Notes: generated from the letters alone by a model not told the origin. A stretch of 64,000 nucleotides of DNA from an uncultured Flavobacteriaceae bacterium (GCA_964561925.1 CAZLRW010000002.1:7882-71881); one strand, 5' to 3'. Positions 6,100 through 30,243 are shown, numbered from the stretch's first letter. Translations and numbers: made by a program.

Positions 6100-7304
6100 G
6101 CGGCTGCTCCCTTCAGATGCGCCGCGATCTTGGCGGCGAGGCGGGCCGCCACTTCGCCCTTCGCGAGCTTCGGCCAGGTTTCGGTGTCGGCCGCCGAGAT
6201 GATGTGGACGGTGTTCTCATCGCCGCCCATCACGCCGGTGGCGGGCGAGACGTCGTTTGCGACGATCCAGTCGCAGCCCTTCTTCGCCCGTTTCGCCTTC
6301 GCGTGTTCGACGACCTTTTCGGTTTCGGCGGCGAAACCGACGACGAGGCGCGGGCGGCCCGTGCCGCGCGTCGCGAGCGTGTGCAGAATGTCCGGGTTCT
6401 CGACGAGCTTCAGCGCGGGCAAGCCGCCGGCGCCCTTCTTGATCTTCTGATTGGCGGCGTGGTCGACGCGCCAGTCGGCGACGGCCGCCGCACAGACCGC
6501 GACGTCGGCGGGCAGTGCCGCCTCGCAGGCGGCGAGCATTTGATGCGCGGTTTCGACCTTCACGAATTTCACGCCGCGCGGGGCGGCGATGTTCGTCGGG
6601 CCCGAGACGAGCGTCGTCGCGGCGCCAAGATCGGCAAGCGCACCCGCGATCGCGTAGCCCTGCTTGCCGGACGAACGGTTCGCGATGAAGCGCACGGGGT
6701 CGATCGGTTCGTGCGTCGGGCCGGCGGTGACCAGCGCGCTGACGCCCGCGAGCGCGTGGCTGCGCGCAAAGTGGGCTTCGACGGCGGAGAGAATCTGGGC
6801 CGGCTCCGCCATGCGGCCGGGACCGAATTCGCCGCACGCCATGTCGCCGTCATTGGGCCCTACGATCGCCACGCCGTCGGCCTTCAGCTGCGCGAGGTTG
6901 CGCTGCGTCGCGGCGTGCAGCCACATTCGCACGTTCATCGCAGGCGCGAGCAGCACCGGCTTGTCGGTCGCAAGCAACGCGGTCGAGGCCAGATCGTCAG
7001 CGCGGCCGGTCGCCATCTTCGCCATCAGGTCTGCCGTCGCGGGCGCGACGACAAGCAGGTCAGCGTCGCGCGAGAGTTGGATGTGGCCCATCTCCGCCTC
7101 GTCGGTGAGGCTGAAGAGGTCTTGATAGATTTTGTCGCCGGTCAGGCTTGCGACCGAGAGCGGGGTGACGAACTCGCCGCCCGCCTTGGTCAGGATCGCG
7201 CGCACGGCCGCGCCGCGCTCGCGCAGGCGGCGGATCAGTTCCAGCGACTTGTAGGCGGCAATGCCGCCGCCGATGACGAGCAGGATGCGTTTGCCGGTGA
7301 GCAC
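6096..7304 (-). CDS. coaBC: Bifunctional phosphopantothenoylcysteine decarboxylase / phosphopantothenate-cysteine ligase
   Basis: 402 aa. Flavoprotein N-domain (GGIAAYKS) plus ligase C-domain (NRSSGKQG). 4-nt overlap with dut. Confidence 0.95.
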
Positions 7305-7419
7305 GCGTTCGGCCTCAATTCATGCAGTGAAGATGGGAATTATACCTAAGTACATCAAGGCGCGTGGAAATTTTGTTTTTGATGGTGAGGGCGGGGGTAA
7401 CCTACTGATAAATAGAGCG

Positions 7420-7543
7420 CTTCCCCCCTTGAGGGGGAAGCTGGCGCGCCGAAGGCGCGTCTGATGGGGGGCGGCGCGCAAAGGCCCCCCCATCCGTCTC
7501 GCCGCTCTCGCGGCGATCCACCTTCCCCCTCAAGGGGGGAAGG
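7420..7543. repeat. Composite GC-rich palindromic intergenic element (REP/RIME-like)
   Basis: CTTCCCCCCTTGAGGGGGAAG (7420-7440) and CCTTCCCCCTCAAGGGGGGAAGG (7521-7543) flank two further GC hairpins: GCGCGCCgaaGGCGCGT and GGGGGG-13nt-CCCCCC. The shadow ORFs across it read ...PLEGEGG..., as is common for such repeats. Confidence 0.7.
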
Positions 7544-7588
7544 GTTGGCTCTAACGGGATACCCCCGCACGATTTCAAGCGAACAACC

Positions 7589-7873
7589 TCATGTACCCGG
7601 AACTTGCTTGGCCGAGCCAAGTTTGCGCGCCTCGCGGACGAGGGCGCGCAAGGCGCGCGCTTCGCGGCGCCAGGCGTCGCCCCTTGTGCCGTGTTTCCAG
7701 GCGTTGCGATTGCCGTGCGGCGCGCCGCCGCGCGCGCCGTGAAAGCGGCAGACGCGATAGCCGCGAACAGCCGGCGCCCGGCAGGGCATTTTCGTCCGCT
7801 TCGAGCGGCTAGCGCAACGCGGTGCTGCCCAAAGCCTGGTGACCATTGAGAGCCGTGTGACCGTTGAGTCCAT
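7589..7873 (-). CDS. Small HGGxSTG-like / Cys-Arg-rich protein (mobile-element-associated type)
   Basis: C-terminal part of ORF 7589..8026: ...RCASRSKRTKMPCRAPAVRGYRVCRFHGARGGAPHGNRNAWKHG.... ATG 7873 is preceded by AAGGAA. The start is uncertain (alternatives 7846 and 7789). It would overlap the upstream ORF by 65 nt. Confidence 0.5.
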   Translation of the reverse strand: MDSTVTRLSMVTRLWAAPRCASRSKRTKMPCRAPAVRGYRVCRFHGARGGAPHGNRNAWKHGTRGDAWRREARALRALVREARKLGSAKQVPGT

Positions 7874-8396
7874 GTCCGTTTCCTTTGTGCGCGGCGCGCG
7901 CGGTGACCTCCCTCTCGCCGCGAATGACGACGTGTTCGACGGTGACCGTCTTCGGCAAGCCTTCGCCGCGGCGGCGATCGAGCGCTTCGACCAGCGCCGC
8001 GTAGGCCCGCGACAGCCGTCCCGCATGCGCCAGGTTCTCGTCGCGCATCTGCGGCTGTTGCGCCGGATCCGCCGCCTTGCGAAAGCACTCCATGGCGGCG
8101 TTGTGGCAAGCGATCATTTGCGCGCCCAGCATGCCCTCAAGCTCGTTGCGGGGACTGAGGCTCACCAAAGCCGCCAGCGCGGCTTCGGCCTTCGTGCGCC
8201 GGTCCGCGTCGTTTCCGGGATTGATGTAAAGGGCTGCCGCCGTTTGCCGGGCGATCAGCGCGTTGAACGCATCCGAGGAAGAGCCGCCGACGTGACGCAT
8301 CGTGGCGGGGCCGGGGTTGGTAGGCGCAGCACCGCGTTCGCCCGGCCGCTCCTGCGTGCTGCTTGCGGCGTTCGTCGCCTTGCGGTCGTCAGTCAT
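7809..8396 (-). CDS. Hypothetical protein
   Basis: 195 aa with protein-like composition (...NELEGMLGAQMIACHNAAMECFRKAADPAQQPQMRDENLAHAGRLSRAYAALVEALDRRRGEG...KTVTVEHVVI). An AT-rich stretch lies upstream. No family recognised with certainty. Confidence 0.55.
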   Translation of the reverse strand: MTDDRKATNAASSTQERPGERGAAPTNPGPATMRHVGGSSSDAFNALIARQTAAALYINPGNDADRRTKAEAALAALVSLSPRNELEGMLGAQMIACHNAAMECFRKAADPAQQPQMRDENLAHAGRLSRAYAALVEALDRRRGEGLPKTVTVEHVVIRGEREVTARAAHKGNGHGLNGHTALNGHQALGSTALR

Positions 8397-8793
8397 CGCG
8401 CCGTCCGGTCCTGATGTTACATAAGCTTTATTTATTTAGAACACATAATGAGCATTGGCAAGCGCCCAAACCAAGCCAAAGCGCGAGTCCCGCCCAAAGC
8501 GTGGGGCGGCAGCGCACACTCGCGCGCCAATTTCCAGGGAACAGCGCTCGTCGTGGGACCGCCGGCGTCCCCCTGGCTGGCCGTTGGCGCTCTCTGTTGC
8601 CGGGCGATACGCCGACGCTGCGCTGCCCCGAACCGGGGACACGATACCTATTGCCCATGACACCGGGGTGTCCGCCTCCGCTTTCGCTCCGGCGGATGCA
8701 GGCGAGACGCCTGCGGTCCCAGGGAGAGTTCTCCTTTTTCGGCGCTGCATCCTACGAACTAAGTCGTAGAGCTAACAGCGGGCGGTCTTAGGT

Positions 8794-10368
8794 TTAGAAC
8801 TGCGCGGCTGCTAATGCGGCCAGCGCCAACGCGCCGATCCAGATGGCTACTCTTATGTGTTGGGTGCGCTGGGTTTGGGCGCGGGCGATCGCTTCGGTGC
8901 TGTCGGGGTGAAGGCGGAGGCCGTTGGTGGTTAGGTGGCTTGCCACTTGTTCGGCGTTTTTGAGGACTTCGGGGAGGGCGGCGATCGCGCGACCCAATGT
9001 CGTCATGCCTTCGGCGGCTTGGTTCAGGCGGGCCCCAGGGCCCACTTGATCGATCATCCATTGTTCGACGACGGGTTGTGCCGATTCCCAGATCGAGTGG
9101 CTTGGGTCGAGCTGTCTTGCGACGCCTTCGACGACGACCATCGTCTTTTGCAGCATCGCGAGTTGCGGCTGCATCTCCATGTCGAAGAGGCGGGTGACTT
9201 CGAAGAGTTGCGTGAGCAGGCGGGCCATCGACATGTTGCTCGCGGGCCTTCCGAAGATCGGTTCGCCGATTGCGCGCAGGGCTTGGGCGAAGTCTTCGAC
9301 GCTGTGACGCGGCGGCACGAAGCCCACTTGCAAATGGATCTGCGCGACGCGGCGGTAGTCGCGTGCCAAGAAGCCGCCGAGCGTTTCGGCCATGAAGCGG
9401 CGCGAGAGCGCGTCGAGGCGGCCCATGATGCCGAAGTCGACGGCGACGAGCTTGCCCGCTTTGTCGACGAACAGGTTTCCCGGATGCATGTCGGCGTGGA
9501 AGAAGCCGTCGCGCAACGCGTGGCGCAGGAAGTTTTGGATCACCGCCGTCGCCAGGTGCTTCATATCGTGGCCTTGCGCGCGCAGGGACGCGATGTCTTT
9601 GAGCGGCGTGGCGTCGATCCACTCGGTGGCCAGAACGCGGCGCGTGGTTAGGTCCCAATCGACTGCGGGCACGCGGAAGTCCGAGTCTTTCGCTGTGTTC
9701 GCCGCCATCTCGGCGGCGGCGGCCGCCTCCAAGCGCAGATCCATTTCGATGACGACGGAGCGGGCGAGCGTTTCGACGCCGGCGGCCGGCTTCATCCGCT
9801 TCATCTCGGCGCCGCCGAAGCGTTCCGCGTTGCGGGCGGCCCAGGCGAAAGCTTTGAGGGCGGCCGCGAATTCCTGCTCGACGCCGGGGCGGAGGATTTT
9901 TAGCGCGCGAAGCTGCGCCGCGCCGCCGGTGCCGGGTTTGAGCGCGACTTTGTGGACTTGCGCGATCGAGGCGGCGGCGACCGCTTCGCCGATGTCGCCC
10001 AAGACTTCTACGCGTTCGGCGGGGAGTTCTTCGCGCAAGATGCGCATGGCTTCGGCGACGGGGAACGGCGACAGGCGATCCTGCAGGTCGGCAAGATCGC
10101 GTGCGATGTCGTTGCCGATGACGTCCGGGCGCGTCGCCAGGAATTGGCCGGCTTTGATGTAGGCGGGGCCGAGCGCGGTCAGCGCGCGGGCGAGGCGTTC
10201 GCCGCTGCGGCCTTGGGCCACGGAACGGTTTTTGGGGAATAGGTATTTGAGGAGTTTCGCTTGCGGCGGCGCGAATGCCTCCCATTCGGGCGGCGGCAGG
10301 ACGCCGTGGGCGCCGAGGACGCTGCCCGCGCGCATCAGACGGCGCATCATAGCGAAGGCGCGCAGCAT
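8794..10368 (-). CDS. ubiB: Ubiquinone biosynthesis regulatory kinase-like protein UbiB (ABC1 family)
   Basis: ABC1/UbiB sequence with AASIAQVH and [14 protein letters not shown] 10368 overlaps the ubiE stop (TGATG). The upstream 18 codons of ORF 8794..10422 were discarded. Confidence 0.9.
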
Positions 10369-11123
10369 CAGAGTTTCCAGCCGGAGTGCATCGCGACGAT
10401 GCCGCCGGAGAGGTCGCGCCATTTCACTTGTTCGAAGCCCGCCTCGGCGATCATCGCCGCAAACTTCTTCTGCGGCGGGAAGCGGCGGATGCTCTCGACG
10501 AGATATTGGTACGACGCGCGGTCGTTTGCGACGGCTTCGCCGATCGCCGGGATCGCGTTGAACGACCAGGCGTCGTAGAGGCTTTCGAGGACGGCGTTTT
10601 CGACCTTCGAGAACTCGAGGCAGAGGAAGCGGCCGCCCTTCTTCAGTACACGGAACGCCTCGGCGAGCGCGCGGTCGATGTGGGTCACGTTGCGGATGCC
10701 GAAGGCGATCGTGTAGGCGTCGAACGCGGCGTCCGGCAGCGGCAGGCGTTCGGCGTCGCCCGCGGTGAACGTCACGCGGCCTGCCACGCCTTTCTCCGCG
10801 GCGCGCTCGCGGCCGACGGCCAGCATCTCCGGGTTAATGTCGCAGACGACGGCGCTGCCGGGTTTGCCGCCCAAGCGCTCGAGGAAGCGGAATGCGATGT
10901 CGCCGGTGCCGCCCGCGACGTCGAGCAGCGCGGTGCCGGGCGCGGGCGCCAGCCAGTCCATCATCGCCTGCTTCCAGATGCGATGAACGCCGAACGACAT
11001 CAGGTCGTTCATCACGTCGTAGCGGCGGGCGACGTTCGAGAAGACGCGGCCGACCAGGCGCGATTTCTCCTCCTCCGCGACCTCGCGGAAACCGAACGAC
11101 ACCGTGCGCTTTTCGTCGGCCAT
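10368..11123 (-). CDS. ubiE: Demethylmenaquinone / 2-methoxy-6-polyprenyl-1,4-benzoquinol methyltransferase
   Basis: [15 protein letters not shown]...[28 protein letters not shown]. Start taken at the 16th codon of ORF 10368..11168. Confidence 0.9.
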
Positions 11124-20921: not shown

Positions 20922-21203
20922 TCAGCGCCGTTCGCGCGAGTGCCAAATGCGGACGACTCGGATGATCTGCTCTTCCTCATACACGCGGTAGCGAATGACG
21001 TAGGCTCCTTTGCCGAAGGGTACAATCAACTCGCGGAGCTGCGCCCGAAGTGGCCTTCCCTTGTTGGGTGTGCCGCGTAGCGAGAGCGCCGAGTCGTAGA
21101 TGAGCTCGATAGCCCGGCGTGCAGCCTCTGCGTTTCGCGGGTGAAGAAACGCGTGCAGGCGATCGAGGTCGTCATAAGCCTGGCCAAGAAACCGGACTTT
21201 CAC
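20922..21203 (-). CDS. Type II toxin, RelE/ParE family (ParE-like)
   Basis: 93 aa, ...GAYVIRYRVYEEEQIIRVVRIWHSRE. 4-nt overlap with the upstream antitoxin. Its stop abuts the gyrB stop. Confidence 0.75.
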   Translation of the reverse strand: MKVRFLGQAYDDLDRLHAFLHPRNAEAARRAIELIYDSALSLRGTPNKGRPLRAQLRELIVPFGKGAYVIRYRVYEEEQIIRVVRIWHSRERR

Positions 21204-21457
21204 GGGGCCGCCTGACCCCTCCTCCGCATCATCACATCGAGCCGGTGGCGCACTTCCTCCTCATCGAAGTCCTCGCCGGTCTTTTCGAACTCGGCAAGTC
21301 GCGCAAGTTCAATCGTCAAGTCGTCGTCGTCTTGCAGCAATTTCTTGATTGCGTCGGTGACGATTTCGGAAGGGGTGCGGTGCGTGTCCGTTGCCAGTCT
21401 TTGGACCGCAGCGTCGAGCTCCGGATCAATTTCGATGGTGCGGACAATCTTATTCAT
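21200..21457 (-). CDS. RHH (CopG/ParD-like) antitoxin
   Basis: MNKIVRTIEIDPELDAAVQRLATDTHRTPSEIVTDAIKKLL followed by an acidic tail. Start chosen at the 13th codon of ORF 21200..21493 (alternative 21469). Confidence 0.7.
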   Translation of the reverse strand: MNKIVRTIEIDPELDAAVQRLATDTHRTPSEIVTDAIKKLLQDDDDLTIELARLAEFEKTGEDFDEEEVRHRLDVMMRRRGQAAP

Positions 21458-21581
21458 GGAATGCAGCATGCCACAGCCTGCGGCGCCCTCCAACCACTCG
21501 GCGTGCGAAAATGGCGCTTCCGAGGCGCGCCTGAATCTGTAGGTTTGGAGCGTTCATGCCATTTATCTTAAGGACCGAGAG

Positions 21582-22253
21582 ATGAAAGTGTCAGAGGCAA
21601 TCAACTCGCGCATCGCCACGCGTGCATTTCTCGACAAACCGGTTCCGGGCGAGGTGTTGCGGCGGATTTTGGAGACGGCGAAGCGGGCGCCTTCGGGCGG
21701 GAATTTGCAGCCCTGGCATGTGTGGGTGCTGGCGGGCGAGCCGATGGTGCGGTTCAAGGCGCTGATCAAGGAGAAGATGGGGGCAGCCCCGCGCGGCGAG
21801 GGGACAGAGTACAGCATCTATCCGCCCGAATTGAAGGAGCCTTACAAGGCGCGGCGCTTCAAGTGCGGCGAGGACATGTACGCCACGATCAATGTCGGGC
21901 GCGAGGACAAGTTCGGGCGGCTTTTGAACTTCGCGCGGAACTTCGAGTTCTTCGGCGCGCCGGCCGCGTTCTTCTTCGCGATCGACCGGCAGATGCAGCA
22001 GGGGCAGTGGGCCGATCTCGGCATGTTCATGCAGTCGATCATGCTGCTCGCGCGCGAGGAGGGTCTGCACACCTGTCCGCAGGAGGCGTGGGCGATTTGG
22101 TACAAAACGGTCGGCGAGTTCTTCTCGATCCCGGGCGAGCTCATGCTTTTTTGCGGGATGGGCATCGGCTTCATGGACGAGGCGCACCCGATCAACGGCT
22201 TGCGCACGGACCGCGCGCCGCTCGAGGAATTCGCGACGTTCGTCGGCGTTTAG
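21582..22253 (+). CDS. Nitroreductase family protein
   Basis: 223 aa, RIATRAFLDKPVP...ILETAKRAPSGGNLQPW. Confidence 0.85.
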   Translation: MKVSEAINSRIATRAFLDKPVPGEVLRRILETAKRAPSGGNLQPWHVWVLAGEPMVRFKALIKEKMGAAPRGEGTEYSIYPPELKEPYKARRFKCGEDMYATINVGREDKFGRLLNFARNFEFFGAPAAFFFAIDRQMQQGQWADLGMFMQSIMLLAREEGLHTCPQEAWAIWYKTVGEFFSIPGELMLFCGMGIGFMDEAHPINGLRTDRAPLEEFATFVGV

Positions 22254-22702
22254 GCCTTTTTCAGCGCGGCTTCTTTTGCGGCGGCCGCGTCGGCCGGGCT
22301 TAGTTCGAGTTCGACGGCGACGCGATCGATCATCATCGTTTCGAGCCGGTGGAGCGTGCCGTCGGCAAGCGCCACATCCCAAAGATGCCTGACGATGTCG
22401 ATCCGCTCGGGCATCGAGTAACCCTTCTTGATCGCCTGGCAGAAGACCCAATTGTCGTAGGTGTTCGCCTGGCGGGCTTCGGCCAGCGCGAACAGCGTGC
22501 GGGCTTGCTCGGCCGGCAGTTTCAGCATCTCGCGCAACAGGCGGATGACGGTGCCCTGCTCCACGGCGTCGTAGTGGCTGTCGAGGCGCGAGGCTTCGAT
22601 CAAGAGGGCCGCCACAGCGACCTGGCGACGTTCGAACGGATCGGGGTTGATCGCGTTCGCTTCCATGCGCTTTTCGAGATAGGCGACGATCTTGTCGAAC
22701 AT
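22250..22702 (-). CDS. TerB-family (tellurite-resistance-like) protein
   Basis: 150 aa. The two-half TerB-like pattern (AAALLIEASRLDSHYDAVE... and RIDIVRHLWDVALADGTLHRLE...) was recognised from memory of the family. Confidence 0.65.
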   Translation of the reverse strand: MFDKIVAYLEKRMEANAINPDPFERRQVAVAALLIEASRLDSHYDAVEQGTVIRLLREMLKLPAEQARTLFALAEARQANTYDNWVFCQAIKKGYSMPERIDIVRHLWDVALADGTLHRLETMMIDRVAVELELSPADAAAAKEAALKKA

Positions 22703-22749: not shown

Positions 22750-22783
22750 AAAAAGGCAAAGGGCCGAAGTTTCCTTCGGCCCC
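22750..22783 (-). terminator. Rho-independent terminator after RND paralogue A
   Basis: GGGCCGAAG-tttc-CTTCGGCCC (22761-22782). On the minus strand it is followed by TTTGCCTTTTT. Confidence 0.65.
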
Positions 22784-22801: not shown

Positions 22802-25540
22802 TTACTGCCAGTGGCCGCCGGGCTCCGGGCCGGCGTAGGGCAGTTTCTTGCGTGGGATCAGCGTGTCGATCACGACCGCAAGGCCCGGCAAGGCGGTCAG
22901 CGCCATCACCATGTTCGTGATGAACATGAAGGTCAGCAGCAGGCCCATGTCGGCTTGGAACTTCAGCGGCGAGAATGCCCACGTGGACACGCCGACCGCA
23001 AAGTTGATCGCCGTGAAGACAACGCCGTTGCCCGTTTCCAGCACGGTTTCGGCATAGGCATCGGTGATGTTGACGCCGCGCGACAGGTGATACTGCAACC
23101 GGTTGTAGATGTAGTAGGCATAGTCGATGCCTATGCCGACCACGAGCACGATGACGGGCAGCGTCGACACCTTCAGACCGATGTCGAGCTCCAGCATGAA
23201 GTAGTAGCCGAAGAACGTGGCGTAGGTCAGCGGCAGACAGCAGCCGACCGCCGCGCGCCAGTCGAAGTAGGTGATGTAGGTGAGGAAGATCACAACCGCG
23301 TAGACGATCAAGATCGACGGCAGTTCGTACTCGTGGATCGTCTCGTTGACCGCCGCCGCGACACCCGAATTACCGGAGGCCAGTCGGATGCGGAACGAGT
23401 CCGGCACGCCGTCGACCAATATCATCTGAGCCTTGGCAAACTCGGGCTTGGCGAAAACGGCCGCGATGTCGATCTGCGCCTTGCCGTCGGGGCCGGGCGT
23501 CACGTCGATCGAGGTCGTGGCGCCCTCGATCTTCGCACCGACGATCGCCTTCTCGTCATTCTCAGGCGGCGCTCCGTAGCCTTGAACCGAGAACGATTGC
23601 GGTTTGTCCTTGATCGCAGCCGGCGCCGTGTAGGTGACCGTCGCGACATCGTCGCGCCGGTAGGCCCAAACGCTCGTCGGCTTCGCCGGTTCGCGCCGCG
23701 CTTTGCCGTCGGCCAGGTACTCCGGCGGCATGATCATGTCGGTGTAGTCCTTGCCGGCGGAGAGGACCGGCTCGAAGCCGCGGGCCGCGATCCACTCCTT
23801 CACGGCCGCAACGACATTCTTGATCGTCTCGGCCTTGCCGTCGATCAGGAACACCTGCAACGGCATCAGCGTGCAGTCGACGTCGATCAAGCCCGAAGAG
23901 GGGGGGATCGGGCCGACGGCTTGAACCAGCGCATATTGATTGCGCGGCAAAGCCCGCCATTTGAGGTTGCCTTCGTTCCACCCGGAGGCGATCTGTTTGG
24001 CGGTGAACGGGGCGCTTTGCACGTCGCGCACGCCGTCGACGTTGCGCATGTACCAGCTGAATTCGTTCAAGTAATTCATGCTGCCGTAGTTGATGCAGGC
24101 CTGGGGCGGCGTCTCGACGACGATCGTCATCAGATCGAGGCCGACCGAGAACTTCTCCGAGATAATCCGTGCGTCGACGTTGTAGCGCGCGTTCGGGTGG
24201 AGTTCCGGCGAGCCCGGGTGCAGGTCGCCGATGTGGCGCTCGCCGCTCTTGATGAAGGTGAAGACGAAGAGGCCGAAGAAAACGATCGAAACCGGGAAGG
24301 CGACCGCCGGTTTGCCGAAGACGGCGAGCTTTTTCATGTAACCGAGGCGCTGATCGCGGGCGGCCATTACGCGCTCGCGGTAGTTCTCCGGGAATTTCAT
24401 GTAGGTGACGAGCACCGGCAGCATGACCAGGTTCGTCACGATCTTGAGTGCCGTGCCGATCGAGGCCGTGATCGCAAGTTCCTGAATCTGCGGGATCGGT
24501 ACGATGATGAGCGCCGCGAAGCCTACGACGTCGGTGATGAGCGAGATCGAACCCGGCACCAAGAGGCCGCGGAAGCTCGACCGGCCGGCGCGCTCGGCAT
24601 TCGAGCCGTGCGCGAGTTCGGCCGTGATCATATTGAGCTGCTGAACGCCGTGACTGGTACCAATGGCGAAGACCAAAAACGGCACGAGAATGGCGAGCGG
24701 GTCGAGGCCGAAACCGAACAGCGTGAGCATACCGAACTGCCACACGACCGAGGTCGCCGAACAGAACACCGTGAGCCACGTCAGCTTCCAATCGCGGCAA
24801 TAGAAGTAGAGCGAGAGGACCGTCAGGATGAACGCGAGAGCGAAGAACGGCGGCGCGGACTCGATGCCGCCTTTGGCGATGTCGGAAATGTTCTTGGCGA
24901 AGCCGATGATGTGGACTTCGAGGCCGTCCTTCTCGAACTTCTGACGGATCTTCTGCTCGAGTTCCTCGCCGAGGGCGATGTAGTCGAGCCTCTGCTGCGT
25001 CGCCGGATCGAACTCGAGGAGTTCGGTCACGACGAGCGAGGCGGTGAAGTCGTTCGACACCAAGCGGCCGACGAGATTGCCCTTCAGAACGTCGTTCTTC
25101 AGCTGCTTGATCGCGACGCCTTCCATTTCGTCGGGCGTGATCTTGCCCGGGATCACGTCGCGCGCGGAGATGCCTTCCTCGTTGATCTCCAGAATGCGCG
25201 TGTTCGGCGTCCAAAGACTCGTGACGGTGCGGCGGTCGACGCCCGGCAGATAGAAGATGTCCTGCGTGATGTCGTTCAGGGTCTTCAGGAACTGCTTGTC
25301 CCAGATGTCGCCCTTCGTGTTGCGCAGCACGATGATGACGCGGTTCGCGCCGAACAGGCGGTCCTGGTACTCGCGAAACGTCTCGATGTACTCGTGGTCC
25401 GTCGGCAAGCCTTTGAAGAAGCCCGCGTCCATGCGCAGCTTCGTCGCCTGGTAGCCCATGACGATCGTGAGGAGGGCGAGCGCCGCAAGCAGAAGAACGC
25501 GCCCACGGAAGAAAATGGTTTCGAGAAAAGTGATGATCAC
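22802..25540 (-). CDS. RND-superfamily exporter, MMPL / sterol-sensing-domain type (paralogue A)
   Basis: 912 aa, GTG start. Two blocks of TM helices, each preceded by a large soluble loop. Motifs: FGANRVIIV, PGVDRRTVTSLWTPN, LDPLAILVPFLVFAIGTSHGVQQLN. No MFP or OMF gene nearby. Confidence 0.85.
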   Translation of the reverse strand: MIITFLETIFFRGRVLLLAALALLTIVMGYQATKLRMDAGFFKGLPTDHEYIETFREYQDRLFGANRVIIVLRNTKGDIWDKQFLKTLNDITQDIFYLPGVDRRTVTSLWTPNTRILEINEEGISARDVIPGKITPDEMEGVAIKQLKNDVLKGNLVGRLVSNDFTASLVVTELLEFDPATQQRLDYIALGEELEQKIRQKFEKDGLEVHIIGFAKNISDIAKGGIESAPPFFALAFILTVLSLYFYCRDWKLTWLTVFCSATSVVWQFGMLTLFGFGLDPLAILVPFLVFAIGTSHGVQQLNMITAELAHGSNAERAGRSSFRGLLVPGSISLITDVVGFAALIIVPIPQIQELAITASIGTALKIVTNLVMLPVLVTYMKFPENYRERVMAARDQRLGYMKKLAVFGKPAVAFPVSIVFFGLFVFTFIKSGERHIGDLHPGSPELHPNARYNVDARIISEKFSVGLDLMTIVVETPPQACINYGSMNYLNEFSWYMRNVDGVRDVQSAPFTAKQIASGWNEGNLKWRALPRNQYALVQAVGPIPPSSGLIDVDCTLMPLQVFLIDGKAETIKNVVAAVKEWIAARGFEPVLSAGKDYTDMIMPPEYLADGKARREPAKPTSVWAYRRDDVATVTYTAPAAIKDKPQSFSVQGYGAPPENDEKAIVGAKIEGATTSIDVTPGPDGKAQIDIAAVFAKPEFAKAQMILVDGVPDSFRIRLASGNSGVAAAVNETIHEYELPSILIVYAVVIFLTYITYFDWRAAVGCCLPLTYATFFGYYFMLELDIGLKVSTLPVIVLVVGIGIDYAYYIYNRLQYHLSRGVNITDAYAETVLETGNGVVFTAINFAVGVSTWAFSPLKFQADMGLLLTFMFITNMVMALTALPGLAVVIDTLIPRKKLPYAGPEPGGHWQ

Positions 25541-25823
25541 GCGACGGCCGCCTCTGGAACGATCGATACCAAGGGGGAGCCGGCGGCTTGGGCGCGGAAC
25601 AAGCGTCCAACGCTAGTCTCGGCACAACAACCCACGAAATCCCCCCGGGGCAGTCCGATCTACCGCACCCCCGCTTAAGACGGGGTTCAACGCCGCAGTC
25701 CCGGGTTGCCTTCCGGTCCATGTTTTTGTCATAGGCGCGATTACGTCAAGCGGTTCGGTGTTGCGCGCGTGCATCTGACGCGCGGATGAGGGGCGCCAGC
25801 GCGCTTTGCGCTTTTCCATAATT

Positions 25824-25850
25824 AAATGGGGGCCATTGTGGCCCCCATTT
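25824..25850 (-). terminator. Rho-independent terminator after RND paralogue B
   Basis: AAATGGGGGCC-attgt-GGCCCCCATTT, a perfect 11-bp stem 8 nt beyond the stop. On the minus strand it is followed by TTTAATTAT. Confidence 0.65.
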
Positions 25851-25857
25851 TCGAAGC

Positions 25858-28599
25858 TTAGTGCCAGTGGCCGCCCGGCTCGGGGCCCGGATAGGGAAGC
25901 TTTTTGCGCGGCAGCAGGGTGTCCATTACGACGGCAATGCCAGGTAGGGCCGTCAGAGCCATCGCCATGTTCGTGATGAACATGAACGTCATGAGAAGAC
26001 CCATGTCGGCTTGGAACTTCAGCGGCGAGAACGTCCAGGTCGAAACGCCGACCGCGAAGTTCAGCGCCGTGAAGAAGATGCCGTTGCCCGTCTCGAGGAT
26101 CGTCTCTTGATAGGCCTCGCTGATGTTGACGCCTCGCGATAGGTGATACTGGAGGCGGTTGTAAATGTAATACGCATAGTCGACACCGACACCGACCACG
26201 AGCACGATCACCGGCAGCGTCGACACCTTCAGGCCGATGTCGAGTTCAAGCATGAAGAAGTAGCCGAAGAACGTGGAGAACAAGAGCGGCAGCATGCAAC
26301 CGACGGCGGCGCGCCAGTCGAAGTACGTGACGTAGGTCAGGAACAGCACCATCGCGTACACGATCAGCGTCGAGGGGCCCTCGTACCACTCGATCGTCTG
26401 GTTGACGGCGGCGGTCACGCCCGAGTTGCCGGACGCCATGCGGGTCGTGAAGGAGTCGGGAACACCGTCGAGCACGAAGAGTTCGGCGTCCTTGAACTCC
26501 GGCTTCGAGATGACCGGGACGAGGTCGACCTTCGCCGTGCCGTCTTCGCCCGGCGACACCTCGACGCTGCCTTCGGCGCCGGCGACGACGTCGCCCACGA
26601 GACCACGCAATTGTTCGTTGCCCTCGGGCGGCCGTTTGTAGCCCTTCACGGTGAAGACTTGCTTCTGGCCTTTGAGCTGCTGCGGCGGCGTGTAGACGAG
26701 GTTCTGGGCCTCTTCGCGCGTTACCGTCCAAGTCGACGTCGGTTTCGCAGGTTCGCGGCGCGGTTTGCCGTCGGCCAGGAACTCCGGCGGCATGATGCGG
26801 TCGCCGTTGTTGCGGCCGGCCGACAGGATCGGCGTGAAGCCGCGCGCGGCCATCCACTCTTCAACTTTCTCGACGACGCCTTCGATCGTCGTCGCCTTGC
26901 CGTCGACCAGGAACACCTGCAGCGGCAGAAGCGTACAATCGACGTCGATCAGGCCGGACGACGAGGGGATCGGGCCAACGGCCTGGACCAGCGCGTAGGT
27001 GTTGCGCGGCAGCGCGCGCCATTTGAGATTGCCTTCGTTCCAACCGGCGGCGATCTGCTTGGCGGTGAACGGCGCGCTCTGCACTTCGCGCACGCCGTCG
27101 ACGTTGCGCATGTACCAGCTGAACTCGTTCAGATAGTTCATCGACGCGTAGTTGATGCAGGCTTGCGGCGGCGTTTCGACGACGATCGTGAAGAGGTCGA
27201 GGCCGACCGAGAATTTCTCCGAAATTACGCGGGCGTCCACGTTGTAGCGCGCGTCGGGGCGCAATTCCGGCGAGCCGGGATGCAGGTCGCCGACGTGACG
27301 CTCGAGGCTCGCGAAGATCGCGCCCACGAACATGACGAGGAACGCGAAGGTCAGCGGGAATGCGACTTTCGGCGTGCCGAACACGCCCAGTTTCTTCATG
27401 AAGTTCAGGCGCGCGTCGCGGGCGCGGGTGATGCGCTCGCGGTAGCCGTCGTCGTACGTGAAGTAGGACGCGATGACGGGCAGCATGATCAGGTTCGTGA
27501 TGATCTTCAGCGCCGTGCCGATCGAGGCGGTGACCGCGAGTTCCTTGATCTGGGGGATCGGAACCACGAACAGCGCGGCAAAGCCGACGACCGCGGTCAC
27601 GAGCGAGAGCGATCCCGGGATCAAGAGGCCGCGGAAGCTCGATCGTGCGGCACCCTCGGGCGATGTGCCGTACGAGAGTTCCGAGGTCATCATGTTCAAT
27701 TGCTGGACGCCATGACTGGTGCCGATCGCGAACACCAAGAACGGCACGAGAATCGCGAGCGGGTCGAGGCCGTAGCCGAGCACGGTCAACAGGCCGAATT
27801 GCCAGACGACCGAGGTCAACGAACAGCCGACGGTGAGCCAGGTCAGCTTCCAGTTACGGCAATAGAAATAGACGGCAAGCACCGTCAGTACGAATGCCAG
27901 ACCGAAGAAGAGCGGCGCCGATTCGATGCCGCCCTTCGCGATGTCGGAGATGTTCTTCGCGAAGCCGATAATGTGGATCTCGAACGGATCCTTCTCGAAC
28001 TTCTGGCGTATCTTCGACTCCAGCTCCTCGCCCAACTTGATGTAGTTCAGTTTTTCGCCGGATGCGGGGTCGAATTCGAGCAACTCGGCGACGATCAGCG
28101 AGGCCGTGAAATCGTTCGAGACGAGGCGGCCGACGAGATTGCCCTTCAGAACGTCGTTCTTCAGCTGCTTGATCGCGGCGCCTTCGATTTCGTCGGGCGT
28201 GATCTTGCCCGGAATGACGTCGCGGGCCGATATGCCCTCTTCCGTGATCTCGAGAATGCGGGTGTTCGGCGTCCAGAGGCTGGTGACCGTGCGGCGGTCG
28301 ACGCCGGGCAAATAGAAGACGTCTTGCGTGACGTCGTTCAGCGTCTTCAGGAACTGCTTGTTCCAGATGTCGCCCTTCGTGTTGCGGACGACGATGATGA
28401 TGCGGTTCGCGCCGAACAGTTTGTCCTGATACTCGAAGAACGTGTCGATGTAGGGGTGGTGTTCCGGCAGGCCTTTGTAGAAGCCCGCATCCATCCGCAG
28501 CTTCGTCGCTTCGTAGCCGAGCACGATGGTCGTGAGCGCGATGAGCGCCAGGACGATGACGCGGCCGCGGAAGAAGATCGTCTCGAGAAAGCGGATCAT
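25858..28599 (-). CDS. RND-superfamily exporter, MMPL / sterol-sensing-domain type (paralogue B)
   Basis: 913 aa, ATG start with AGGAG upstream. Collinear with paralogue A from MIRFLETIFFRGRV to PEPGGHWH. Confidence 0.85.
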   Translation of the reverse strand: MIRFLETIFFRGRVIVLALIALTTIVLGYEATKLRMDAGFYKGLPEHHPYIDTFFEYQDKLFGANRIIIVVRNTKGDIWNKQFLKTLNDVTQDVFYLPGVDRRTVTSLWTPNTRILEITEEGISARDVIPGKITPDEIEGAAIKQLKNDVLKGNLVGRLVSNDFTASLIVAELLEFDPASGEKLNYIKLGEELESKIRQKFEKDPFEIHIIGFAKNISDIAKGGIESAPLFFGLAFVLTVLAVYFYCRNWKLTWLTVGCSLTSVVWQFGLLTVLGYGLDPLAILVPFLVFAIGTSHGVQQLNMMTSELSYGTSPEGAARSSFRGLLIPGSLSLVTAVVGFAALFVVPIPQIKELAVTASIGTALKIITNLIMLPVIASYFTYDDGYRERITRARDARLNFMKKLGVFGTPKVAFPLTFAFLVMFVGAIFASLERHVGDLHPGSPELRPDARYNVDARVISEKFSVGLDLFTIVVETPPQACINYASMNYLNEFSWYMRNVDGVREVQSAPFTAKQIAAGWNEGNLKWRALPRNTYALVQAVGPIPSSSGLIDVDCTLLPLQVFLVDGKATTIEGVVEKVEEWMAARGFTPILSAGRNNGDRIMPPEFLADGKPRREPAKPTSTWTVTREEAQNLVYTPPQQLKGQKQVFTVKGYKRPPEGNEQLRGLVGDVVAGAEGSVEVSPGEDGTAKVDLVPVISKPEFKDAELFVLDGVPDSFTTRMASGNSGVTAAVNQTIEWYEGPSTLIVYAMVLFLTYVTYFDWRAAVGCMLPLLFSTFFGYFFMLELDIGLKVSTLPVIVLVVGVGVDYAYYIYNRLQYHLSRGVNISEAYQETILETGNGIFFTALNFAVGVSTWTFSPLKFQADMGLLMTFMFITNMAMALTALPGIAVVMDTLLPRKKLPYPGPEPGGHWH

Positions 28600-29030
28600 T
28601 GGACTCGTCTACTCCTGCACGCGGCCGGCGGCGGCGTTGGTTGTCGTTCGATCGGCGGCGCGGGCGATCGGAGATTCCGGGTCGCGGCGGCTGGAAATTT
28701 GAACGGGTGAGCGCGATGGCGGGTTCGGGCAACGCGCGGGCGCAATTCGGCCGGTCACTGCTCTTCCCCTTCCCACGCGGTGCCTTTCGGCGACCAATGA
28801 CATCCCCCGGGGCAGCGCGGGCGGCCTCTTTGGGCGCTCCATTCCCCCGCGATGTCCCTACCACGATTCAGACATTGCGCGAACACACACAGGGACGCAA
28901 AAAACGAACACTCTTGTTGCTGTCAGGCGACCTGTCATTCGAGCAACGCGGATTTCGCGTTATGGTTGTGCAGACGATAACCACATCGTCATTAAGGCTG
29001 CTCTAACGTCGACATGGCCATAGTCGAACC

Positions 29031-29067
29031 TGACGATCACGTCACATTTAAGTTGACGTGTGCGTCA
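29031..29067. promoter_or_regulatory. Two tandem 14-bp palindromes TGACG-N4-CGTCA (operator-like) upstream of the di-iron protein gene
   Basis: TGACGatcaCGTCA (29031-29044) and TGACGtgtgCGTCA (29054-29067), centres 23 bp apart, 55-90 nt upstream of ATG 29122. Confidence 0.45.
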
Positions 29068-29121
29068 TTTTCTCTAAGGTGGTTAGGTCCGACTTTTTCG
29101 AACCGGTGGGAGTTTGATCCA

Positions 29122-30243
29122 ATGACGGCGATGCAGATCACGAAGGACAACGCGTACGACGCGCTCGATCCGAAAGACTTCCCGGCGATGATGGAGGTCG
29201 ACCGCTACAACGCGCGTTCGACGGCTTTCGACAAGATCATCTCGGCGACCCACGACCATTTCTGGGATCCGCTCGACAAGAAGTACATCGACTACAGCGA
29301 GAAGTTCGATCTCGAGAACGAAGCGATCCTGCCGGAAGAGTTCTTTCCGATCTTCCAGACGAAATTCGGCGAAAAGCTGAGCGCGAAGCAGAAGATAAAG
29401 TTCGCGAACGAGTCCGCGCGCTGGATCCTGTCGTCGATCCTGCACGGCGAGCAGGGGGCGCTGTCGCTCTCGGCCTCGCTCTGTCACATTCTGCGCGATC
29501 CGGGTGCTCAAGAATACGCCGCGAACCAGGCTCGCGAAGAAGCGCGGCACGTCACGGGTTTCGCGCGTTATGTGCAAGCGCGTTGGGGCAAGCCGCTGCC
29601 GGTCGGACCTACGCTCGGTGCGCTTCTGACCGACCTCGTGCTGGCGCCGGAGGTCTACAAGAAGATCGTCGGCATGCAGATGCTGGTCGAGGGGCTCGCG
29701 ATGGGCGCCTTCGCGACGCTCTACACGAAGTCGCGCGATCCGCTGCTGGTGCGGCTGACCCAGCTCGTCATGACGGACGAGGCGTTCCACCACAAGTTCG
29801 GCAAGATCTGGGCGGACCGCACGATTCCGAAGCTGTCGAAGGACGAGCAGAACATCGTCGAGGACTGGGCGGCGAGCTGCTTCCAGACGCTGCTGTTCAA
29901 CCTGATCAACCCCGAGCAGATGAAGTCCGTCTACGAGTCGGTCGGGATCGACTGGAAGGCGGCGCACGAGTCGCTTCTCGAGGCGATCACGGACGAGCAT
30001 CGCCGCGAGCGCATGCGCCAAGGCACGGACATTTTCCGCGTGCTGATCAAGACGCTGCTCAAGGCCGGCATCATCACGGACCGCACGAAGTCGTTCTATG
30101 CGATGTATGTCGACATGGAAGAGCTCAAGGCCGAGGGCGATCACATGATCGGCGACGACATCGCGGAGGAAGGAATCAGGTTCCTTCAAACGGTGAACTT
30201 CGGCACGAAGGGCAAGGCGACCGCGCTGCTTGCGGCGGAGTAG
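29122..30243 (+). CDS. Ferritin-like di-iron carboxylate protein (AurF-like di-iron oxygenase family), function unknown
   Basis: Ligand pattern HGEQGAL ... EEARHV ... MLVEGLAMGAF ... TDEAFHHKFG (E / ExxH / E / ExxH). GGGAG lies 8 nt before ATG 29122. The upstream 36 codons of ORF 29014..30243 were discarded. Confidence 0.75.
   Translation: MTAMQITKDNAYDALDPKDFPAMMEVDRYNARSTAFDKIISATHDHFWDPLDKKYIDYSEKFDLENEAILPEEFFPIFQTKFGEKLSAKQKIKFANESARWILSSILHGEQGALSLSASLCHILRDPGAQEYAANQAREEARHVTGFARYVQARWGKPLPVGPTLGALLTDLVLAPEVYKKIVGMQMLVEGLAMGAFATLYTKSRDPLLVRLTQLVMTDEAFHHKFGKIWADRTIPKLSKDEQNIVEDWAASCFQTLLFNLINPEQMKSVYESVGIDWKAAHESLLEAITDEHRRERMRQGTDIFRVLIKTLLKAGIITDRTKSFYAMYVDMEELKAEGDHMIGDDIAEEGIRFLQTVNFGTKGKATALLAAE

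What the first reader, a model, noticed from the sequence alone, without database searches (positions are those of the whole stretch)
22802..28599. Two tandem, diverged MMPL/SSD-type RND exporters, each its own transcription unit, with no MFP or OMF partner
Seen: adjacent same-strand ORFs of 912 and 913 codons align end to end, from MI(I)TFLETIFFRGRV... to ...PEPGGHW. They are near-identical in the membrane helices, for example LDPLAILVPFLVFAIGTSHGVQQLN in both. I did not compute identity. Each has its own leader (317 nt for A, over 500 nt of divergent spacer for B) and its own hairpin plus T-run terminator (22750-22783 and 25824-25850). No membrane-fusion or outer-membrane-factor gene is nearby. 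Established: RND proteins that act without MFP/OMF partners (MmpL, HpnN, sterol-sensing-domain type) usually move lipids or other envelope components. Inference: this is a duplicated envelope-lipid-type exporter pair, either a heteromer or two specificities, from a subfamily that as far as I know is uncharacterised in alphaproteobacteria.
Basis: partly seen in the sequence, partly recalled or inferred. Interest (0 to 1): 0.6.

Follow-up and report, generated by a model that had tools for sequence, protein, structure and literature searches.

The report
Duplicated pump of split envelope system
The two neighbouring genes are real, anciently duplicated inner-membrane pumps of a known but poorly understood four-part envelope transport system for greasy molecules, and their outer-membrane and periplasmic partners are encoded elsewhere in the same genome rather than being absent.

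Summary
Two same-strand ORFs (22802-25540, 912 aa; 25858-28599, 913 aa) are 76% identical end to end. Both match Pfam MMPL and Patched-SSD, and each is followed by a stable hairpin.

The proteins are not partner-less HpnN/MmpL-type exporters. They belong to the RND family that elsewhere sits in DUF1302-DUF1329-BNR-RND cassettes (the AmeABCD type). In a 201-genome class sample, all 19 genomes with this RND family also have DUF1302, against 3 of 182 without it. This genome encodes DUF1302, DUF1329 and BNR together on another contig.

The duplication is old. Copy A and copy B form separate, well-supported clades. Copy B is present in every related locus, while copy A survives in only 4 of about 20 and has been lost repeatedly. 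Both copies are under purifying selection. They differ most in a clade-specific, roughly 130-residue beta-rich insert in the second periplasmic domain.

One unexpected feature: cytoplasmic AurF-like di-iron genes flank both halves of the split system. One lies divergent from copy B. One or two more follow the DUF1302-DUF1329-BNR trio, in the slot the RND normally occupies.

Verdict: a new variant of a known kind, of moderate interest.

The parts
22802..25540 (-). RND paralogue A (912 aa, GTG start). This is the optional, derived copy.
   Evidence: ORF and translation. Pfam MMPL, Patched SSD and Sterol-sensing. It falls in the A clade with the second copies of L005, L007 and L013, support 100. 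dN/dS within the A clade is 0.11-0.15.
25858..28599 (-). RND paralogue B (913 aa, ATG start). This is the copy present in every related locus.
   Evidence: ORF and translation. Pfam MMPL and Patched SSD. It falls in the B clade with all single-copy genes, support 99. The AF2 model has pLDDT 82 and pTM 0.80, and its nearest solved folds are MmpL5, MmpL4 and MmpL3.
26449..26841 (-). PD2 insert of B (residues 587-717), a beta-rich subdomain in the second periplasmic domain.
   Evidence: In the model it lies between helix 569-586 and strand 718-723. Length at this site is 127-132 aa in Micropepsaceae, 119 and 151 aa in L039, 57 and 71 aa in G156 and G117, and 5 aa in Tepidicaulis. There is no Pfam hit and no structural relative (best E 0.07). 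dN/dS of A vs B here is 0.69, against 0.17 elsewhere.
23393..23779 (-). PD2 insert of A (residues 588-716).
   Evidence: Alignment with B. It is 51% identical to the insert of B.
22760..22783 (-). Intrinsic terminator after A.
   Evidence: The scan calls it: 10-bp stem, 7 GC pairs, T-run. Folding gives -28.8 kcal/mol, z -4.8.
25824..25850 (-). Hairpin after B (terminator-like, with a weak T-run).
   Evidence: Sequence read. Folding gives -21.6 kcal/mol, z -3.8. The scan did not call it. Strong terminators sit at the same position in L005, L007 and L013.
25541..25857 (-). 317-nt spacer and leader of A. It contains CTGCCCCGGGGG at 25642-25653.
   Evidence: The motif occurs only twice in the 4.9-Mb genome, once in each RND leader. 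Beyond the terminator the spacer does not align with the A spacers of other loci.
28600..29121 (.). Divergent control region between B and the AurF-like gene. It holds conserved leader blocks for B, CTGCCCCGGGGG at 28804-28815, and twin TGACG-N4-CGTCA palindromes at 29031-29044 and 29054-29067.
   Evidence: Conserved blocks across 15 loci, with no covariation-supported overall fold. No Rfam match. Genome-wide motif counts.
29122..30243 (+). AurF-like di-iron protein (two ExxH motifs, no signal peptide), a conserved divergent neighbour of the RND gene. The longest ORF starts at 29014.
   Evidence: Pfam AurF E 4e-9 and a weak aldehyde decarbonylase match. N-terminus and motifs. It is adjacent to the RND orthologue in all Micropepsaceae loci and in G156, G195, G010, G117, G066, Tepidicaulis and L039. 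Paralogues follow DUF1302-DUF1329-BNR on C4.
22250..22702 (-). TerB-domain protein downstream of the RND gene(s).
   Evidence: Pfam TerB E 2e-26. It follows the RND in all Micropepsaceae loci, in Tepidicaulis and in G156. It is separated from A by the terminator.

Best explanation
RND_A and RND_B are proton-motive-force-driven inner-membrane transporters with an MmpL-like architecture: 12 TM helices and two periplasmic domains. They belong to the RND family that forms the pump of the four-part DUF1302 / DUF1329 / BNR(Ycf48-like) / RND envelope module (AmeABCD type).

In this lineage the module is split. The outer-membrane barrel (DUF1302), the LolA-like periplasmic carrier (DUF1329) and the BNR propeller are encoded together on another contig (C4:50885-56305). 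The pump genes sit near the replication origin genes.

The inferred mechanism is as follows. The pump moves a hydrophobic molecule between the inner membrane and the periplasmic carrier. The carrier then shuttles it to or from the DUF1302 barrel. The cargo and the direction of transport are unknown.

The pair arose by one old tandem duplication, before the sampled Micropepsaceae radiated. B is the universal copy. A is an accessory copy that has been kept under purifying selection in a few lineages and lost in most. The copies differ mainly in a clade-specific beta-rich insert of the second periplasmic domain and in the TM6-TM7 region. This fits two pumps with different cargo or periplasmic-partner preference better than an obligate heteromer.

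Shown here: homology, phylogeny, co-occurrence, presence of the partner genes, selection, and the predicted fold. Inferred: physical cooperation with the unlinked partners, the cargo class, and subfunctionalisation.
For: Family and fold:
- Pfam MMPL and SSD hits.
- AF2 model with pLDDT 82. Top solved folds are MmpL5, MmpL4 and MmpL3, TM-score 0.60-0.77.
- Polar residues invariant across 42 homologues and present in both copies: H296 in TM4, and D807, Y808 and R815 in TM10.

Homology to cassette pumps:
- RNDs inside canonical DUF1302-DUF1329-BNR-RND clusters are 33-44% identical to B. There are 11 such loci from 10 genomes.
- They form one family with A and B, separated from remote COG1033 RNDs by branches of about 4.6 substitutions per site.
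- A and B lie in an 'unlinked' sister clade (support 99). That clade also holds RNDs paired divergently with DUF1329 (G010, G195).

Co-occurrence:
- In 201 class genomes from 197 genera, 19 of 19 genomes with the RND family have DUF1302, against 3 of 182 without it. Fisher p = 8e-24.
- Two same-family genomes that lack the RND (G004, G189) also lack DUF1302 and DUF1329.

Partners in this genome:
- DUF1302 (E 1e-139), DUF1329 (E 4e-123) and PSII_BNR (E 1e-18) are adjacent on C4. Two more DUF1329 genes lie on C17. All have hydrophobic, signal-peptide-like N-termini.

Literature:
- AmeABCD deletion lowers monoterpene tolerance (PMC6394551).
- The four genes are cofit even when split into two loci in P. 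stutzeri (bioRxiv 10.1101/072470) and P. putida (bioRxiv 10.1101/2020.07.04.188060).
- AlphaFold predicts DUF1329-DUF1302 and DUF1329-BNR-RND complexes (PMC10866462, PMC13499233).

Duplication:
- A clade support 100, B clade 99-100.
- The tandem is present in 4 independent assemblies.
- dN/dS is 0.09-0.18 within each clade.
- B alone is present in about 15 loci, with TerB directly downstream.
Against: - The pump genes are not in a cassette with the partners, so cooperation rests on co-occurrence and homology, not on linkage in this genome.
- I could not place AmeD, PP_2019 or Sama_1591 themselves in the tree. The 'cassette clade' is defined by gene context only.
- NCBIfam's HAE3 model scores below its cut-off for A and B (147 and 131 vs 352 bits). 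The same is true of a cassette RND (186 bits).
- RND and DUF1329 copy numbers do not match one to one. G201 has 2 RNDs and 3 DUF1329 genes.
- dS is about 0.6-1.0 in a genome with GC3 near 0.87 and is probably saturated or biased, so the dN/dS values are approximate.
Confidence: 0.7

Rival explanations
1. One reading: stand-alone MmpL/HpnN-like lipid exporters. [quoted passage not shown]
For: There is no partner gene within about 10 kb. The nearest solved folds are MmpL3, MmpL4 and MmpL5. The SSD-type Pfam hits are real. The unlinked clade has been separate from the cassettes for a long time, so it could have become independent of them.
Against: The RND family co-occurs perfectly with DUF1302 in 201 genomes, and both are lost together in G004 and G189. 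HpnN and MmpL models score far below their cut-offs. Identity to MmpL structures is 12-14%, against 33-48% to cassette or DUF1329-adjacent pumps. Split but cofit arrangements are documented in Pseudomonas (bioRxiv 10.1101/072470).
Confidence: 0.15
2. A and B form an obligate heteromeric pump.
For: A is never found without B (4 of 4 tandem loci). Both are under purifying selection. The core periplasmic segments stay 90-95% identical.
Against: B occurs alone in about 15 related loci, and A was lost at least 3 times by free parsimony, or at least 5 times if only losses are allowed. B therefore works without A. A terminator hairpin separates the genes in all four tandem loci.
Confidence: 0.07
3. 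A and B are a dedicated transporter pair for the product or substrate of the neighbouring cytoplasmic AurF-like di-iron enzyme. On this reading the link to DUF1302, DUF1329 and BNR is secondary. It overlaps with the best explanation and differs in what defines the functional unit.
For: The AurF-like gene and the RND form a divergent pair conserved across at least 5 families. In G158 a remote COG1033 RND sits in the same slot. AurF-like paralogues follow the DUF1302-DUF1329-BNR trio in 5 genomes. The twin palindromes occur as a pair only upstream of AurF-like genes.
Against: 16 of about 25 genomes with this AurF-like subfamily have no RND or DUF1302 at all. G121 keeps the RND orthologue without the AurF-like gene. 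The pair sits inside a larger conserved syntenic block (HK/RR, MmcB, HldE), so adjacency may partly be inherited gene order. The palindromes lie next to the AurF-like start, not next to the RND start.
Confidence: 0.35
4. The duplication is an assembly artefact or a recent strain-level collapse or expansion.
For: The genome is a fragmented MAG of 439 contigs.
Against: The copies are only 76% identical at protein level. The same tandem, with orthologous A and B clades, is present in three other assemblies. Both ORFs are intact and under purifying selection.
Confidence: 0.01

Closest known systems
AmeABCD of Castellaniella defragrans, and the cofit DUF1302/DUF1329/BNR(COG4447)/RND(COG1033) clusters of Shewanella, Kangiella and Pseudomonas (PMC6394551; bioRxiv 10.1101/072470; bioRxiv 10.1101/2020.07.04.188060; PMC10866462)
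   Same: Same RND family: 33-44% identity to pumps inside such cassettes, and one monophyletic family. The genome encodes all three partner types. The RND family co-occurs strictly with DUF1302. A split into two unlinked loci is also known in P. stutzeri and P. putida.
   Different: - The split here is different. The BNR gene stays with DUF1302 and DUF1329, and the pump is alone. In Pseudomonas the BNR gene stays with the pump.
- The pump is tandemly duplicated.
- It carries a clade-specific insert of about 130 aa in PD2. AmeD-type pumps are about 780 aa.
- AurF-like di-iron genes occupy the pump's slot after the trio and also flank the pump.
- AmeD itself was not available for a direct comparison.
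HpnN (hopanoid transporter, HAE3)
   Same: An RND of the COG1033/HAE3 type with no MFP or OMF partner. It gives weak local hits to the TM7-12 region.
   Different: NCBIfam HpnN models score 15-31 bits against cut-offs of 752-1100. No hopanoid genes were seen in the annotated neighbourhood. Partners of the DUF1302 and DUF1329 type are present in the genome.
Mycobacterial MmpL3, MmpL4 and MmpL5
   Same: These are the best structural matches: TM-score 0.60-0.64 normalised to the query and 0.71-0.77 normalised to the target. The overall layout is the same, with 12 TM helices and two periplasmic domains, and with family-specific additions in PD2.
   Different: Identity is 12-14%. TIGR00833 scores 56-72 bits against a cut-off of 875. 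The host is Gram-negative. The PD2 addition is a small beta-rich domain, not a coiled coil. No MmpS partner was looked for.
HAE1 tripartite pumps (AcrB or MexB with MFP and OMF)
   Same: RND superfamily. Both span the envelope by means of accessory proteins.
   Different: TM-score is only 0.41-0.49. There is no MFP or OMF nearby. The OqxB model scores 26 bits against a cut-off of 2200.

Membership tests
RND superfamily, MMPL-type (Pfam PF03176) | Match to PF03176 above the gathering score | tested here: met
   A scores 54.3 bits and B 55.9 bits against a cut-off of 20.5.
RND superfamily, MMPL-type (Pfam PF03176) | 12 TM helices with two large periplasmic domains, after TM1 and after TM7 | tested here: met
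   The AF2 model (pLDDT 82) shows TM1 at 13-31, PD1 at about 35-212, TM2-6 at 213-377, TM7 at 410-431, PD2 at about 435-723 and TM8-12 at 725-895. Foldseek places it with MmpL3, MmpL4 and MmpL5.
RND superfamily, MMPL-type (Pfam PF03176) | Conserved polar or charged residues in TM4 and TM10 (proton relay) | tested here: inconclusive
   H296 (TM4) and D807, Y808 and R815 (TM10) are invariant in 42 homologues including both copies. Their equivalence to the MmpL3 Asp-Tyr pairs rests on my recollection and was not checked by structural superposition.
HAE3 (NCBIfam TIGR00921) | Score above the curated cut-off of 351.9 bits | tested here: not met
   A scores 147 bits and B 131 bits. HAE3 is still the best-scoring model. 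A pump from a canonical cassette also fails, at 186 bits, so the model does not cover this lineage.
AmeD lineage / DUF1302-DUF1329-BNR-RND module | The pump is homologous to, and in one family with, pumps encoded in such cassettes | tested here: met
   Identity to 11 cassette pumps is 33-44%. They form one family, well separated from remote COG1033 RNDs.
AmeD lineage / DUF1302-DUF1329-BNR-RND module | The pump gene lies inside the four-gene cassette, which is the definition used in PMC6394551 | tested here: not met
   A and B are flanked by AurF-like and TerB genes. They fall in an 'unlinked' sister clade of the cassette clade.
AmeD lineage / DUF1302-DUF1329-BNR-RND module | The genome encodes DUF1302, DUF1329 and a COG4447/Ycf48-like BNR protein | tested here: met
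   C4:50885-56305 encodes all three, and C17 holds two more DUF1329 genes.
AmeD lineage / DUF1302-DUF1329-BNR-RND module | Phyletic co-occurrence of the pump family with DUF1302 | tested here: met
   19 of 19 genomes with the pump have DUF1302, against 3 of 182 without it. Fisher p = 8e-24.
AmeD lineage / DUF1302-DUF1329-BNR-RND module | Physical or genetic interaction of the four proteins (cofitness, complex formation) | not testable with these tools
   No multimer prediction or fitness data were available. The organism is an uncultured MAG.
HpnN hopanoid transporter | Match to NF052374 or TIGR03480 above the cut-off | tested here: not met
   Scores are 15.1 and 31.6 bits for A and 24.3 bits for B, against cut-offs of 1100 and 751.85.
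HAE1 tripartite efflux pump | Adjacent MFP and OMF genes, and an AcrB-like porter and docking architecture | tested here: not met
   No HlyD or OEP domains were found in the genes annotated from 8794 to 38938. TM-score to AcrB-type pumps is 0.41-0.49.

The most novel reading that the evidence does not exclude
In one alphaproteobacterial lineage (Micropepsaceae and neighbours) the four-part envelope module has been rebuilt around cytoplasmic AurF-like di-iron enzymes. Di-iron genes take the pump's place behind DUF1302-DUF1329-BNR. Another di-iron paralogue is paired divergently with the relocated, insert-bearing pump(s). The di-iron genes share a twin-palindrome operator. On this reading the di-iron enzyme makes or oxidises the hydrophobic cargo, and RND_A and RND_B are cargo- or partner-specific pumps of that pathway. 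This would give the orphan DUF1302/DUF1329/BNR/RND system a defined enzyme partner, and so a route to identifying its substrate.
Probability: 0.35. Interest if true: 0.55.

Novelty: new variant of a known kind. Interest (0 to 1): 0.35.

Why it matters
The DUF1302/DUF1329/BNR/RND module is widespread in Gram-negative bacteria. It is linked to tolerance or use of hydrophobic compounds such as monoterpenes and fatty esters. Its cargo, its direction of transport and its mechanism are all still unknown.

This locus shows that apparently partner-less MMPL-type pumps in alphaproteobacteria can be the detached pump of that module. That matters for annotation and for reading "orphan" RND genes.

The lineage also offers natural experiments:
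- a pump duplicated and then repeatedly lost;
- a hot spot for insertions in the second periplasmic domain, ranging from 5 to 151 residues;
- a recurring physical link to one family of cytoplasmic di-iron enzymes, which might point to the substrate.

None of this overturns current understanding. It refines a known but poorly understood system.

Tried and rejected
- **One pump per DUF1329 carrier.** This genome has 3 RNDs and 3 DUF1329 genes. I rejected the idea because G201, a complete chromosome, has 2 RNDs and 3 DUF1329 genes, and the other MAGs show no consistent ratio.
- **AurF-like protein as an obligate partner of the pump.** Rejected in that form. 16 genomes with the subfamily lack the pump and DUF1302. 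G121 has the pump orthologue without the AurF-like gene.
- **A structured RNA or riboswitch in the leaders.** Rfam found nothing at E <= 1 apart from a chance viral hit. RNAalifold on 15 B leaders gave -5 kcal/mol with almost no covariation. Only a small GGGG-loop hairpin shows compensating changes, and it is not present in that form in the window.
- **Shared leader or operator motifs at the unlinked partner loci.** The conserved B-leader blocks do not recur upstream of the DUF1302 operon or of RND_C. The palindromes recur only at AurF-like genes.
- **Identity of the PD2 insert.** There is no Pfam hit at E <= 10 and no significant Foldseek match. The isolated-domain model is of only moderate confidence (pLDDT 70).
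- **Sequence search of solved structures.** Only TM-region hits to MmpL3 and MmpL5 at E about 4e-8.
- **Recent gene conversion between A and B.** Not supported, because the A and B clades are cleanly separated.
Full report
**Observation.**

The window holds two adjacent minus-strand ORFs exactly as described. RND_A is 22802-25540 (912 aa, GTG start). RND_B is 25858-28599 (913 aa, ATG start). BLASTP aligns them end to end with 76% identity, 88% positives and 2 gaps.

Both match Pfam MMPL and Patched-SSD above the gathering scores, and A also matches the Sterol-sensing domain.

They are periplasmic segments 81-160 (93-95%) and 441-560 (90-93%). The least conserved are residues 361-440 (57%) and 641-680 (35%).

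A clear intrinsic terminator follows A at 22783-22760, folding at -28.8 kcal/mol with z -4.8. The hairpin after B (25850-25824) is stable at -21.6 kcal/mol (z -3.8), but its T-run is poor and the scan did not call it. The three other tandem loci have strong hairpin-plus-T-run terminators at the same place, so separate transcription units are plausible.

No HlyD-type MFP or OEP-type OMF domain occurs in the genes annotated between 8794 and 38938.

**Setting.**

The pair lies just downstream of dnaA-dnaN-recF-gyrB. The local gene order is nitroreductase(+), TerB(-), RND_A(-), RND_B(-), then divergently AurF-like(+), MmcB-like and HldE, then RR/HK, an ankyrin-repeat protein and PBP1. The closest loci in public genomes are mostly labelled Micropepsaceae MAGs. 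The assembly is a 4.9-Mb MAG in 439 contigs.

**The duplication.**

- In 22 related loci the whole neighbourhood is syntenic. Most carry a single RND gene, 78-85% identical to B and 74-77% identical to A, followed directly by TerB. Only L005, L007 and L013 carry a second gene, which is 83% identical to A.
- Trees give an A clade (window A plus those three second copies, support 100). They give a B clade holding every single-copy gene and the first copies (support 99-100). L020 is unresolved at the base.
- The duplication therefore predates the radiation of the sampled group. It is not an assembly artefact.
- Copy A has been lost at least 3 times by free parsimony. By inspection of that tree, at least 5 losses are needed if only losses are allowed.
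- A more distant MAG (L039) has its own tandem of 936 and 904 aa. Its copies branch one after the other outside the A/B split, so tandem duplication has happened more than once at this locus.
- Nei-Gojobori dN/dS is 0.11-0.15 within A and 0.09-0.18 within B. Between A and B it is 0.23 overall, 0.69 in the insert and 0.17 elsewhere. dS is probably saturated, so these are rough, but neither copy is decaying.
- In the three A copies where the start could be read (window, L005, L013) it is GTG or TTG. All B copies start with ATG.

**Which family.**

NCBIfam's best model is HAE3, below its cut-off. The HpnN, MmpL and OqxB models are far below theirs. Sequence search of the PDB finds only TM-region similarity to MmpL3 and MmpL5.

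An AlphaFold2 model of B, built from a 42-sequence alignment, has pLDDT 82 and pTM 0.80. Its best solved matches are MmpL5, MmpL4 and MmpL3 at TM-score 0.60-0.77 and 12-14% identity. AcrB-type pumps reach only 0.41-0.49.

H296 in TM4 and D807, Y808 and R815 in TM10 are invariant across the 42 homologues, including both copies. This fits a working proton-driven transporter.

**The partners are elsewhere.**

The literature describes a lineage of HAE3 pumps encoded with an outer-membrane DUF1302 protein, a LolA-like DUF1329 protein and a COG4447/Ycf48-like BNR protein:
- AmeABCD of Castellaniella, whose deletion lowers monoterpene tolerance (PMC6394551);
- cofit four-gene clusters in Shewanella, Kangiella and Pseudomonas, split into two loci in P. 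stutzeri (bioRxiv 10.1101/072470) and in P. putida, where they are needed on Tween 20 and fatty esters (bioRxiv 10.1101/2020.07.04.188060);
- AlphaFold predictions of DUF1329-DUF1302 and DUF1329-BNR-RND complexes (PMC10866462; PMC13499233).

The window's own genome encodes DUF1302 (894 aa), DUF1329 (465 aa) and a PSII_BNR protein (380 aa) side by side at C4:50885-56305. Two more DUF1329 genes lie on C17, and a third RND paralogue (779 aa, 40% identical to B) is at C4:27869-30208.

In an even sample of 201 genomes of the class (197 genera), the RND family (E <= 1e-60) occurs in 19 and DUF1302 in 22. All 19 RND genomes have DUF1302, and only 3 of the other 182 do. Fisher p = 8e-24. Two genomes of the same family but another genus (G004, G189) lack the RND, DUF1302 and DUF1329 together.

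Eleven loci from ten genomes carry the canonical DUF1302-DUF1329-BNR-RND cassette, with pumps 33-44% identical to B.

In a context-labelled tree all these pumps form one family, set apart from remote COG1033 RNDs by very long branches. Within the family, the cassette pumps form one clade (support 90) and the 'unlinked' pumps another (support 99). The unlinked clade contains a subclade of DUF1329-adjacent or orphan pumps, which includes this genome's RND_C. It also contains the clade of pumps that sit next to an AurF-like gene (support 100), which includes A and B.

I conclude that A and B are detached pumps of this module, not partner-less exporters. Direct cooperation remains inferred.

**The insert.**

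A and B carry 129-131 extra residues between the last helix and the last strand of the second periplasmic domain. The same site holds 127-132 aa in Micropepsaceae, 119 and 151 aa in L039, 57 and 71 aa in two other families, and 5 aa in Tepidicaulis.

It is predicted to be beta-rich. It has no Pfam match and no significant structural relative (best E 0.07). It is the fastest-evolving part and the main difference between A and B. A role in partner or cargo selection is a reasonable guess and nothing more.

**The di-iron neighbour.**

The AurF-like gene is best started at 29122. It has two ExxH motifs and no signal peptide, and it is weakly similar to aldehyde-deformylating oxygenase.

It is the divergent neighbour of the pump in every Micropepsaceae locus where that flank is on the contig. 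It is also the neighbour in Tepidicaulis, in L039, and in G156, G195, G010, G117 and G066. In G158 a remote RND (22% identity) sits in the same slot.

Independently, one or two AurF-like paralogues (65-70% identical to the window's gene) follow the DUF1302-DUF1329-BNR trio on the same strand in this genome, in G201, G212 and G209, and in the more distant G215. That is the slot the pump occupies in canonical cassettes.

The twin TGACG-N4-CGTCA palindromes occur as a pair only twice in the genome, both times directly upstream of an AurF-like gene.

Against an obligate link: 16 of about 25 genomes with this subfamily have neither the pump nor DUF1302. G121 has the pump orthologue without the AurF-like gene. 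The pair also lies within a larger conserved syntenic block. I rate a true functional link at about one in three.

**Verdict.**

This is a new variant of a known but poorly understood kind of system: split, with a duplicated insert-bearing pump, and flanked by di-iron genes. Earlier notes of this scan, which are unverified, describe the same module in many genomes, often beside enzymes that act on hydrophobic substrates. That agrees with this reading, but it also means the module itself is not rare. Interest is moderate.

Noticed in passing
window 29031-29044 and 29054-29067; G000 C4:56328-56341 and 56344-56357; C173:6306-6319: Twin TGACG-N4-CGTCA palindromes occur as a pair at only two places in the 4.9-Mb genome, both directly upstream of AurF-like di-iron genes. 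A single copy lies next to a fourth, distant AurF-like gene. There are 22 sites genome-wide. This looks like a common operator of the AurF-like paralogues. The pair is conserved in related loci (A3 alignment).
   Followed up: partly
window 25642-25653 and 28804-28815: CTGCCCCGGGGG occurs exactly twice in the whole genome, once in the leader of RND_A and once in the leader of RND_B.
   Followed up: partly
L001, L003, L004, L005, L006, L008, L010-L013, L015, L021, L022: 160-240 nt upstream of the B-type RND start: 13 of 18 B-type leaders have a small hairpin with a GGGG loop. The stems differ by compensating changes, for example GCGCT/AGCGC, CACTC/GAGTG and TGTGCATT/AATGCACA. It is not present in that form in the window. 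Rfam has no match.
   Followed up: partly
L067 (G201 C1:3446000-3465999) and L070 (G212 C64): The DUF1302-DUF1329-BNR trio is itself tandemly duplicated and is then followed by two AurF-like genes. Duplication therefore affects both halves of the split system in this lineage.
   Followed up: no
L017 10001-12576 (G212 C60:109557-112132): The B-type RND of this MAG is split into two frames (residues 1-526 and 578-913). It is either a pseudogene or an assembly error.
   Followed up: no
L047 (G158 C20) 7106-10854: A remote COG1033/MMPL RND (about 22% identical to A and B) lies divergent from the AurF-like orthologue, in the slot that A/B-type pumps occupy elsewhere.
   Followed up: partly
L045 (G004) and L046 (G189): Same-family genomes of another genus keep the AurF-like gene, here next to hslVU and hisB. 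They lack the RND, DUF1302 and DUF1329 altogether.
   Followed up: partly
G000 C4:50115-50621: A Fur-family regulator gene lies divergent from the DUF1302-DUF1329-BNR-AurF-AurF cluster. This may tie the cluster, with its di-iron genes, to metal status.
   Followed up: no
window 21119-21571: A 150-aa ORF between gyrB and the nitroreductase gene has no Pfam match. I did not examine it.
   Followed up: no
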